Origin: a virus
Taxonomy: Duplodnaviria; Heunggongvirae; Uroviricota; Caudoviricetes
Virus record (IMG/VR): IMGVR_UViG_2690316086_000017
DNA: 8,108 bases
Direction: 5' to 3' (one strand)
Positions 1,868-2,150 of the stretch are shown here, one piece after another (the first letter of the stretch is position 1; each line of letters begins with the position of its first letter). The notes under the pieces were generated by a model, which was not told the DNA's origin, searched no databases, and was given only the letters and a program-made list of their open reading frames with translations. Made by a program: the position numbers and the translations under genes.

Positions 1868-2062
1868 TTACGCCTCACTTGTTGCAATGCCCAGGCGTTC
1901 GCGTAACAGTACGCGCGCAAGATGCCCTATTGTTGGTGTTGCCGCCCTGCCGTAGATACCTGATTCATTCATCCGGCGCACAATATCGAACTGCAACTTT
2001 TTAAGCTCGTTAAGGATTTCATGATCAATCATCACGGTAGCGCTTTGCTTTATCTCTTCCAC
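1868..2062 (-). CDS. hypothetical small protein, 64 aa, possible DNA-binding regulator
   Basis: GTG start at 2062 with AGGAG 8 nt upstream. Followed 3 nt later by the 53-aa ORF, so the two look co-transcribed ahead of terS. Confidence 0.45.
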   Translation of the reverse strand: MEEIKQSATVMIDHEILNELKKLQFDIVRRMNESGIYGRAATPTIGHLARVLLRERLGIATSEA

Positions 2063-2150
2063 TTTGTTTTCTCCTGATACTTATCATTGCATAACCAGTA
2101 TTTTCGATAGATTATCATTAATTAACCATCTTTGAAGATATATGAGATCG

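What the first reader, a model, noticed from the sequence alone, without database searches (positions are those of the whole stretch)
1868..2127. Two small ORFs ahead of terS under a promoter region with 18-bp imperfect direct repeats
A 64-aa ORF (GTG start, strong RBS) and a 53-aa coiled-coil ORF precede terS. Upstream lie two related 18-bp repeats, ACTTATCATTGCATAACC (2079-2096) and GATTATCATTAATTAACC (2110-2127), spaced 31 bp apart. These could be binding sites for an activator of the packaging module, and the 64-aa protein is a plausible small DNA-binding regulator.
Basis: seen in the sequence. Interest (0 to 1): 0.4.

Follow-up and report, generated by a model that had tools for sequence, protein, structure and literature searches.

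The report
Satellite packaging-operon promoter and small regulator
This is the start of the packaging and capsid gene block of a small E. coli phage satellite: a terminator, a weak promoter built from a duplicated 31-bp unit, and a first gene for a tiny, probably DNA-binding protein found only in satellites; it is a plausible self-regulating switch, still untested.

Summary
Both repeats are at the stated coordinates (13/18 identical, 31 bp apart), and both small ORFs are real, conserved genes. The window is an 8.1-kb Gram-negative PICI-type satellite, 100% identical to an island of E. coli O26:H11 11368. All genes are on the minus strand.

The repeats are the core of two tandem 31-bp units (2110-2140 and 2079-2109, 20/31 identical). 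These units fill the gap between an intrinsic terminator (2157-2174) and the 64-aa gene. The repeats overlap the best promoter candidate (TTAATT-17-AATACT; AAYACT sits at a constant distance in 10 of 11 relatives). That is operator geometry, not upstream-activator geometry.

Best reading (about 0.4): this is an Arc/CopG-style self-regulated late-operon promoter. Activation by AlpA or a helper factor is not supported, and binding is untested. It is a new member of a known kind, of moderate interest.

The parts
2157..2174 (-). Intrinsic terminator ending the upstream (replication/accessory) transcription unit: AGCCGGAGCAATCCGGC followed by T7
   Evidence: One search reports a 7-bp stem with 5 GC pairs, a 4-nt loop and a T-run. 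It is invariant in 7 E. coli relatives. Equivalent GC hairpin plus T-run elements are seen upstream of the homologous gene in most relatives.
2110..2140 (-). Tandem unit U1 (TATCTTCAAAGATGGTTAATTAATGATAATC).
   Evidence: GATAAT is TATAAT in EC100, FRIK2069 and CEC96047.
2079..2109 (-). Tandem unit U2 (TATCGAAAATACTGGTTATGCAATGATAAGT).
   Evidence: 20/31 identical to U1. AAYACT lies 36-45 nt upstream of the start codon in 10 of 11 non-redundant loci; L009 has AACAAT there. The stretch TAATCTATCGAAAATACTG is invariant in E. coli relatives.
2071..2075 (-). Shine-Dalgarno AGGAG, 8 nt before the GTG start
   Evidence: read directly from the sequence.
1868..2062 (-). 64-aa gene: probable ribbon-helix-helix DNA-binding protein and first gene of the late zone
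1703..1864 (-). 53-aa gene: single long helix (coiled-coil candidate), probably translationally coupled to the 64-aa gene
   Evidence: invariant C-terminus EVEGLISLLGE; helix 5-51, pLDDT 94.7. The same gene pair occurs in Serratia-type islands.
1576..1702 (-). Conserved non-coding gap before terS. It holds an imperfect GC-rich hairpin (about 1652-1700) and two AAAGTTAC words (1600-1607, 1612-1619).
1087..1575 (-). terS (small terminase, Terminase_2 / phrog_641)

Best explanation
Region 2063-2174 is the insulated promoter-operator of the satellite's late (packaging/capsid) operon. The operon reads: 64-aa gene, 53-aa gene, terS, a second 53-aa gene, capsid-like gene. A strong terminator stops transcription coming from the replication module. 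A weak sigma-70-type promoter, built inside two tandem 31-bp units, then restarts it.

The first gene product is a small ribbon-helix-helix-type dimer. It most likely binds the two units, which lie three helical turns apart on the same face of the DNA. One unit sits over the -35/spacer and the other over the transcription start. Binding would feed back on the protein's own operon, most likely as a repressor that limits or times late expression. The model is Arc in the P22 arc-ant operon, or CopG and omega in plasmids.

Shown: the gene order, the terminator, the tandem units and their overlap with the candidate promoter, the conserved position of the gene family, and the fold prediction.
Inferred: the exact promoter, DNA binding by the 64-aa protein, its target and the sign of regulation.

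The 53-aa helix is a conserved companion of unknown role. It may be an oligomerisation or modulating partner.
For: 1. Element identity. The window is a PICI-type satellite carrying int, an AlpA-like gene, a RepA helicase, an iteron ori, terS and a capsid-like gene. All genes run in one direction, and the element sits at tRNA-Pro.
2. Insulation. A terminator lies at 2157-2174, followed by an 88-nt stretch with 28% GC.
3. Tandem units. Two 31-bp units are 20/31 identical (P = 0.02). Offsets of 30-32 bp are the top self-similarity offset in 7 of 11 non-redundant relatives, against an expected 6% (binomial about 1e-6, ignoring shared descent). The same offset appears in a distant island, L019 (read by eye).
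4. Promoter. AAYACT sits at a constant distance from the start codon in 10 of 11 loci (L009 has AACAAT), with a TTGATC/TTAATT-like hexamer 16-17 nt upstream in most of them. The repeats then span about -37..-20 and -6..+12.
5. Gene family. The 64-aa family (69 proteins from E. coli, Citrobacter, Enterobacter, Serratia-type and metagenomes) is the first gene after the replication gene plus gap in 11 of 12 loci examined; L014 is a truncated remnant. It precedes different morphogenesis genes: terS/capsid, portal, or a ClpP-capsid fusion.
6. Satellite-specific. No homologue is found in 50,697 phage genomes.
8. Selection. The gene is under purifying selection.
Against: - No sequence method gives a significant RHH match: Pfam, PHROGs and NCBIfam return nothing. 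Only 1 of 42 family members hits RHH_1, at E = 0.062. Foldseek finds nothing significant.
- The helix 1 to helix 2 loop (11 residues) is longer than in typical RHH proteins.
- The repeat is only modestly above chance in the window.
- In close relatives the repeats are the most variable part of the region, while the protein's putative DNA-reading strand is unchanged.
- Relatives with nearly identical beta-strands (L005 and L012) have different upstream units.
- Averaged over the family, U1-U2 similarity within a locus is only slightly higher than between loci (15.6 against 12.5 of 31).
- The 31-bp spacing is much larger than the 7-11 bp between adjacent RHH dimers in known operators.
- A self-repressor alone does not explain how the operon is switched on after induction.
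- No consensus promoter was found by the scan.
Confidence: 0.4

Rival explanations
1. The tandem units are decaying remnants of an old duplication of the promoter region, or AT-rich coincidence, and have no protein partner of their own. The 64-aa protein acts elsewhere, for example on helper-phage DNA as an interference factor, at the pac region, or as a non-DNA-binding packaging or assembly factor.
For: - Statistical support within the window is modest.
- The repeats vary most among close relatives, and their mutual identity drops to 10/18.
- Within-locus U1-U2 similarity is weak family-wide.
- Sequence support for the RHH fold is weak.
- Satellites are known to encode small proteins that target helper functions (Rpp, PMC6739421; CapR of PLE, cited in PMC10111431).
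Against: - The ~31-bp offset recurs in 7 of 11 divergent loci whose sequences can no longer be aligned. This is hard to explain by neutral decay.
- Position 9 of both repeats changed A to G together in one haplotype.
- The first-gene position next to its own promoter is typical of autoregulators.
- No similar sequence exists in phage genomes for the protein to target by homology to its own promoter.
Confidence: 0.25
2. The repeats are binding sites for a trans-activator of the packaging module: AlpA of the satellite, or a late activator of the helper phage. The weak promoter stays silent until that factor arrives.
For: - The promoter matches consensus poorly (7/12; no hit), as activator-dependent promoters do.
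- AlpA activates transcription in the model island EcCICFT073 (PMC6092414).
- The operon needs an ON signal that a self-repressor does not supply.
Against: - The repeats overlap the core promoter and the start site instead of lying upstream (-41 or beyond) with either candidate -10.
- The alpA promoter region has different repeats, AAAAACGGTG x2 at 6447-6476, and none resembling GGTTA..AATGATAA.
- In PICMI satellites AlpA behaves as an excisionase and does not change transcription (PMC10803314).
- There is no P2/P4-type TGT-N12-ACA site (read by eye).
- The region has no similarity to any phage late promoter.
Confidence: 0.15
3. A host factor controls the promoter. LexA would give SOS control, as in SaPI operon I. 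Fur or IHF are alternatives. The repeats would then be parts of such sites.
For: - Relatives carry LexA-box-like palindromes starting exactly at the AAYACT motif. L010 has CACTGTATGTCAATACAGTA and L015 has TACTGTATGTGTGTTCAGTA; both fit CTG-N10-CAG, match 16/20, and have P about 1.5e-4.
- L005, L012 and L014 match 15-16/20 with one core mismatch.
- The window keeps the left half, TACTG.
- AATGATAAT resembles the Fur-box core.
Against: - In the window and its E. coli relatives the right half-site is absent (best 11/20, core 4/6).
- The Fur match is 12/19, which 31% of shuffles reach, and no IHF consensus site is present.
Confidence: 0.05

Closest known systems
Ribbon-helix-helix autoregulators encoded as the first gene of their operon (P22 Arc in arc-ant, pMV158 CopG in copG-repB, pSM19035 omega, F-plasmid TraY/TraM)
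   Same: It is a small (about 45-65 aa) strand-helix-helix protein and the first cistron of its operon. The repeated sequences overlap its own core promoter. The best structural neighbours are TraM N-domain, HP0222, ParD, NikR and a CopG-family protein.
   Different: No significant sequence or profile match to any RHH family. The inter-helix loop is long. The units are 31 bp apart, not 7-11 bp. Dimerisation and DNA binding are untested. The family is restricted to phage satellites.
SaPI operon I (staphylococcal PICI packaging operon, LexA-controlled; Ubeda et al. 2007, cited in PMC6092414)
   Same: It is a separate, insulated transcription unit for satellite terS and capsid-related genes, headed by small genes. 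Several relatives of this locus carry LexA-box-like palindromes at the same promoter.
   Different: This window has no complete LexA box. The element is Gram-negative, and no gene is homologous. Here the operon starts with a putative DNA-binding protein.
Gram-negative PICIs such as EcCICFT073 (Fillol-Salom 2018/2019; PMC6092414, PMC6739421) and the four-zone layout of PMC10111431
   Same: It has int, alpA, a Bro/immunity zone with C4/isrK-type RNAs, a replication gene plus ori, and a late zone with a capsid homologue. It is unidirectional, about 8 kb, and integrated next to a tRNA gene.
   Different: The late zone carries its own terS (pac-type) rather than Rpp plus a cos site. The papers I read describe no regulator or promoter for the late zone.
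Late-gene activators encoded just upstream of terS (RinA/ArpU/LtrC of Gram-positive phages, PMC3152322; P4 Delta / P2 Ogr)
   Same: A small putative regulator gene lies immediately upstream of terS and the morphogenesis genes.
   Different: There is no homology. The repeats lie upstream of the regulator gene itself and over the core promoter, not at an activator position before terS. In many relatives no gap separates the small gene from the next late gene.

Membership tests
Ribbon-helix-helix (Arc/MetJ/CopG) DNA-binding proteins | Strand-helix-helix topology in a domain of about 45 residues | tested here: met
   The AF2 model (42-sequence alignment, pLDDT 85.9) has an extended segment at residues 1-13 and helices at 14-33 and 45-56. 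In a monomer model the strand cannot pair, so it appears as an extended chain.
Ribbon-helix-helix (Arc/MetJ/CopG) DNA-binding proteins | Significant sequence or profile similarity to a curated RHH family | tested here: not met
   No Pfam, PHROG or NCBIfam hit. Only 1 of 42 members hits RHH_1, at E = 0.062. In PDB profile searches the best hit was a CopG-family chain at E = 0.75, and later none.
Ribbon-helix-helix (Arc/MetJ/CopG) DNA-binding proteins | Structural similarity to solved RHH proteins | tested here: inconclusive
Ribbon-helix-helix (Arc/MetJ/CopG) DNA-binding proteins | Intertwined homodimer whose two strands form the DNA-reading ribbon, with binding to repeated operator sites | not testable with these tools
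There is no binding assay.
Gram-negative phage-inducible chromosomal island (PICI) | Integrase, AlpA-type regulator, primase or replication gene with downstream ori, unidirectional genes, 8-20 kb, site-specific integration, no tail or lysis genes | tested here: met
   int is at 6867-8108, the AlpA-like HTH gene at 6164-6370, the RepA/AAA_25 gene at 2557-3957 and the iterons at 2429-2558. The element lies at tRNA-Pro between yejM and yejO. Mobilisation by a helper phage was not tested.
LexA-repressed promoter (SOS box) | CTG-N10-CAG palindrome close to TACTGTATATATATACAGTA overlapping the promoter | tested here: not met
   The window's best match is TACTGGTTATGCAATGATAA (11/20; the right half is GAT). 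The feature is met in relatives L010 and L015 (16/20).
RHH-antitoxin toxin-antitoxin pair | The RHH gene is followed by a toxin gene of a known family, and the pair is kept together | tested here: not met
   The 53-aa partner is a single helix with no toxin-family hit. It is absent from the Citrobacter/Enterobacter-type loci, where the RHH gene directly precedes a protease-capsid gene. PADLOC was not searched.

The most novel reading that the evidence does not exclude
The 64-aa protein and the tandem 31-bp operator would together be the missing late switch of a broad class of enterobacterial PICIs. A satellite-only regulator family would set the timing and level of packaging and capsid gene expression. 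In some lineages it would be layered on LexA control. In others, including this one, it would have replaced the SOS box, with the 53-aa helix modulating it. A bolder variant is that the protein also binds helper-phage DNA and serves as an interference factor.
Probability: 0.2. Interest if true: 0.55.

Novelty: new member of a known kind. Interest (0 to 1): 0.35.

Why it matters
How Gram-negative PICIs turn on their late (packaging and capsid-remodelling) genes is not described in the papers I could read. Only AlpA and the early operon have been studied. A conserved layout of terminator, tandem-unit promoter and small regulator at the head of the late zone gives a concrete, easily testable handle on that step. 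The layout is found in about 220 of 5,426 complete E. coli genomes (EHEC O26, O111, O157 and others) and in Citrobacter, Enterobacter and Serratia-type islands.

It also offers a compact regulatory part for engineered PICI delivery vehicles. If the protein merely autoregulates, this is a routine addition to the RHH repertoire.

Tried and rejected
- Sigma-70 consensus scan: no promoter at >=9/12 in 1000-2700. The promoter assignment rests on comparative position only.
- Pfam, PHROGs and NCBIfam found nothing for the 64-aa protein, and only weak coiled-coil noise for the 53-aa protein.
- PDB sequence searches gave nothing significant. Foldseek against PDB gave nothing significant. afdb50 was unavailable.
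- The search for related loci failed with the family alignment because no block was conserved enough. With one protein it returned a single locus. Relatives were instead collected one by one with the look-up of encoding contigs.
- Searching the promoter region against phage genomes gave only chance AT-rich hits. That offers no support for mimicry of a helper late promoter or a Q-loading site, or for a helper operator.
- tblastn of both small proteins against phage genomes found no match.
- Fur box: 12/19, reached by 31% of shuffles. IHF: no site. Both rejected.
- LexA box in the window: rejected because the right half is missing.
- Toxin-antitoxin reading: rejected (see the membership test).
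- The name 'antitermination protein NusG' that some NCBI records give the 53-aa protein has no model support and is treated as a mislabel.
- BLASTP of the second 53-aa ORF (914-1075) against the island's own TerS found nothing, although a PHROG profile links them.

Full report
CONTEXT

The 8,108-bp window is an integrated phage satellite of the Gram-negative PICI type. It is 100% identical to a segment of E. coli O26:H11 11368 and of many other EHEC genomes. In those genomes it lies between tRNA-Pro/yejM and yejO. All genes are on the minus strand:
- int, 6867-8108
- an AlpA-like HTH gene, 6164-6370
- an Icd/Ash-type zone holding C4 and isrK RNA matches
- several small ORFs
- a DUF4222 gene
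- a RepA/AAA_25 helicase, 2557-3957
- an iteron ori, 2429-2558
- an 81-aa gene, 2193-2438
- the region of interest
- terS, 1087-1575
- a 53-aa ORF, 914-1075
- an HK97-type capsid homologue, 1-927

This matches the four-zone PICI layout described in PMC10111431 and PMC6092414.

THE OBSERVATION

Both 18-mers are at the stated coordinates. They share 13/18 bases and start 31 bp apart. In shuffles of the intergenic region, a 13/18 pair arises 10% of the time. The 14/18 pair obtained by shifting one base arises 1.4% of the time. The core word GGTTANNNAATGATAA occurs nowhere else in the window.

The similarity does not stop at 18 bp. On the minus strand the whole stretch is two head-to-tail 31-bp units:
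- U1, 2110-2140: TATCTTCAAAGATGGTTAATTAATGATAATC
- U2, 2079-2109: TATCGAAAATACTGGTTATGCAATGATAAGT

The units are 20/31 identical, and a third TATC follows (P = 0.02). The two ORFs are as described and match RefSeq CDSs. The 64-aa gene shows mostly synonymous divergence from relatives. The 53-aa gene starts 3 nt after the 64-aa stop codon.

WHERE THE REPEATS SIT

A clear intrinsic terminator (2157-2174) ends the upstream unit. The 94 nt between it and the GTG start codon are AT-rich (28% GC over the 88 nt next to the start codon).

I collected the homologous region from 10 further non-redundant loci whose 64-aa proteins are 34-53% identical to the window's. One block is shared: AAYACT lies 36-45 nt before the start codon in 10 of the 11 loci, and L009 has AACAAT there. 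In most loci a TTGATC/TTAATT-like hexamer lies 16-17 nt upstream of that block.

In the window this gives TTAATT (2120-2125), a 17-nt spacer and AATACT (2097-2102). The match to consensus is poor (7/12), and the consensus scan found no promoter. A second -10 candidate is GATAAT at 2111-2116. It reads TATAAT in three E. coli relatives and TAAAAT in L011.

With the second, they span about -23..-6 and +9..+26. Either way they overlap the core promoter or the early transcribed region. That is the geometry of an operator, not of an upstream activator site.

CONSERVATION

Within E. coli there are three haplotypes of the region. The repeats are its most variable part, with mutual identity of 13, 10 and 12 of 18. 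The spacer TAATCTATCGAAAATACTG is invariant. One change (A to G at position 9) occurred in both repeats of one haplotype.

Across distant relatives the repeat sequence is not conserved, but the layout is. An offset of 30-32 bp is the strongest self-similarity offset in 7 of 11 non-redundant loci, where 6% would be expected (binomial about 1e-6, ignoring shared ancestry). It is individually significant in the window, L005, L013 and L014. Three loci instead repeat ATTGATC at 17 bp. The 31-bp offset also appears in a distant island (L019), where a 68-aa protein aligns with the family in the same register (hhalign P = 0.001).

The signal should not be overstated. In a fixed frame, U1-U2 identity within a locus averages 15.6/31, against 12.5/31 between loci.

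THE 64-AA PROTEIN

It has no Pfam, PHROG or NCBIfam match. An exhaustive HMMER search found 6 cluster representatives. A profile search then found 69 proteins from E. coli, Citrobacter, Enterobacter and metagenomes.

In 11 of the 12 loci examined it is the first gene after the satellite's replication gene (RepA/AAA_25 or D5-type primase) and a 300-550-bp gap. The exception, L014, is a truncated remnant. The gene precedes different morphogenesis genes in different loci: terS plus capsid, a portal gene, or a ClpP-capsid fusion with a DUF1441 protein. It has no homologue in 50,697 phage genomes.

The conserved pattern K-x-x-S/T-V-M/Y-I/L-D-x-E aligns with the RHH strand in two weak comparisons. 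I rate an RHH-like DNA-binding fold at roughly two in three.

THE 53-AA PROTEIN

It is conserved at 42-57% identity, with an invariant C-terminus EVEGLISLLGE. It sits directly after the 64-aa gene in E. coli and Serratia-type islands and is absent from the Citrobacter/Enterobacter type. It is predicted to be one long helix (pLDDT 94.7) and has no phage homologue. Some NCBI records call it 'antitermination protein NusG'. No model supports that name.

MECHANISM

The best-supported reading is an insulated late-operon promoter whose first product feeds back on it, as Arc does in P22 arc-ant, or as CopG and omega do in plasmids. Two sites three helical turns apart would be bound on the same face of the DNA. 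One covers the -35/spacer and the other covers the start site, which argues for repression.

Two points weaken this reading:
- RHH operators usually have 7-11-bp spacing.
- A self-repressor alone gives no ON switch.

The ON signal could come from residual read-through after AlpA induction, from copy-number amplification, or from an unknown factor. In several relatives it probably comes from LexA. L010 and L015 carry full CTG-N10-CAG palindromes starting at the AAYACT block (16/20 to consensus, P about 1.5e-4 each). L005, L012 and L014 carry near-boxes. This recalls LexA control of SaPI operon I. The window keeps only the left half-site.

RIVAL EXPLANATIONS

- Activator model (AlpA or a helper factor). 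It is disfavoured by site position, by the unrelated repeats at the alpA promoter, and by the lack of any similar sequence in phage genomes.
- Host Fur or IHF sites. They are not supported.
- A neutral remnant of a duplication, with the protein acting elsewhere. This cannot be excluded.

COMPARISON AND NOVELTY

Functionally the arrangement looks like a classical RHH-autoregulated operon placed at the head of a PICI late zone. Membership in the RHH superfamily is supported by predicted topology and by the ranking of structural neighbours, but not by sequence statistics. Dimerisation and DNA binding could not be tested.

None of the papers I searched and read on PICIs describe this protein or a late-zone promoter. 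I classify the finding as a new member of a known kind. It is of moderate interest mainly to people working on satellites.

CAVEATS

- All regulatory statements are inferences from sequence.
- The promoter elements are weak matches.
- The cross-locus statistic treats related loci as independent.

Noticed in passing
window 1346-1619: The word AAAGTTAC occurs six times in the window, all within this stretch, where 0.2 are expected. Three copies lie at 12-bp spacing inside terS (1346, 1358, 1370; they encode KKVTKKVTEKVT). One inverted copy is at 1397-1404. Two copies at 12-bp spacing (1600, 1612) lie just upstream of terS. This is a candidate pac / TerS-binding array.
   Followed up: partly
window 1652-1700: An imperfect GC-rich hairpin sits in the conserved 127-nt gap between the 53-aa gene and terS. 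No T-run follows it. Its 5' G-run varies from G7 to G10 among E. coli relatives. The fold of the whole gap is not significantly more stable than shuffles (z = -1.7).
   Followed up: partly
window 914-1075: The second 53-aa ORF, just after terS, matches the central part (profile positions 89-126) of the small-terminase family phrog_641 (E = 8e-7). It has a homologue in L008. It could be a TerS-fragment mimic. BLASTP against the island's own TerS found nothing.
   Followed up: partly
window 5166-5351: Rfam matches above the gathering score: C4 antisense RNA (5166-5253, 77.6 bits) and isrK (5275-5351, 66 bits), both on the minus strand inside the Icd-like/Ash pseudogene zone. This is a P1/P4-type immunity RNA region.
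   Followed up: no
window 2429-2558: A replication-origin-like iteron block (CCCCACTTTT words, two 85-bp-spaced units) lies downstream of the RepA gene. The otherwise identical O26:H11 11368 copy is 83 bp longer, and the size of the difference suggests one extra ~85-bp iteron unit.
   Followed up: partly
window 6447-6476: The alpA promoter region has its own direct repeats, AAAAACGGTG x2 spaced 20 bp apart. They overlap a palindrome, ACGGTGTATACCGT, and follow a terminator. They are candidate AlpA sites and are unrelated to the late-promoter repeats.
   Followed up: no
L010 2963-2982; L015 2958-2977; L005/L012, L014: LexA-box-like palindromes (CTG-N10-CAG, 16/20 to consensus, P about 1.5e-4) sit exactly at the late-zone promoter of related satellites. 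This suggests SOS control of Gram-negative PICI late genes, analogous to SaPI operon I. The papers I read do not mention it.
   Followed up: partly
window 1864-1868 junction, compared with L002-L004: There is a sharp change in divergence. The 64-aa gene differs by 12.8% from O157-type relatives. The adjacent 53-aa gene and terS differ by only 1-2%. This points to a recombination boundary between the regulator/promoter block and the packaging genes.
   Followed up: partly
window 2145-2195; L019: The terminator and the 3' end of the 81-aa gene slot are shared with other E. coli islands that carry a PerC-family regulator there. One of these (ExPEC XM, with a DUF927 primase, SSB and ProQ) has the same layout: terminator, tandem 31-bp promoter and a 68-aa RHH-like first gene.
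   Followed up: partly
window 1703-1864: Some NCBI records name this 53-aa single-helix protein 'antitermination protein NusG'. No Pfam or NCBIfam model supports the name, and RefSeq calls it hypothetical.
   Followed up: yes
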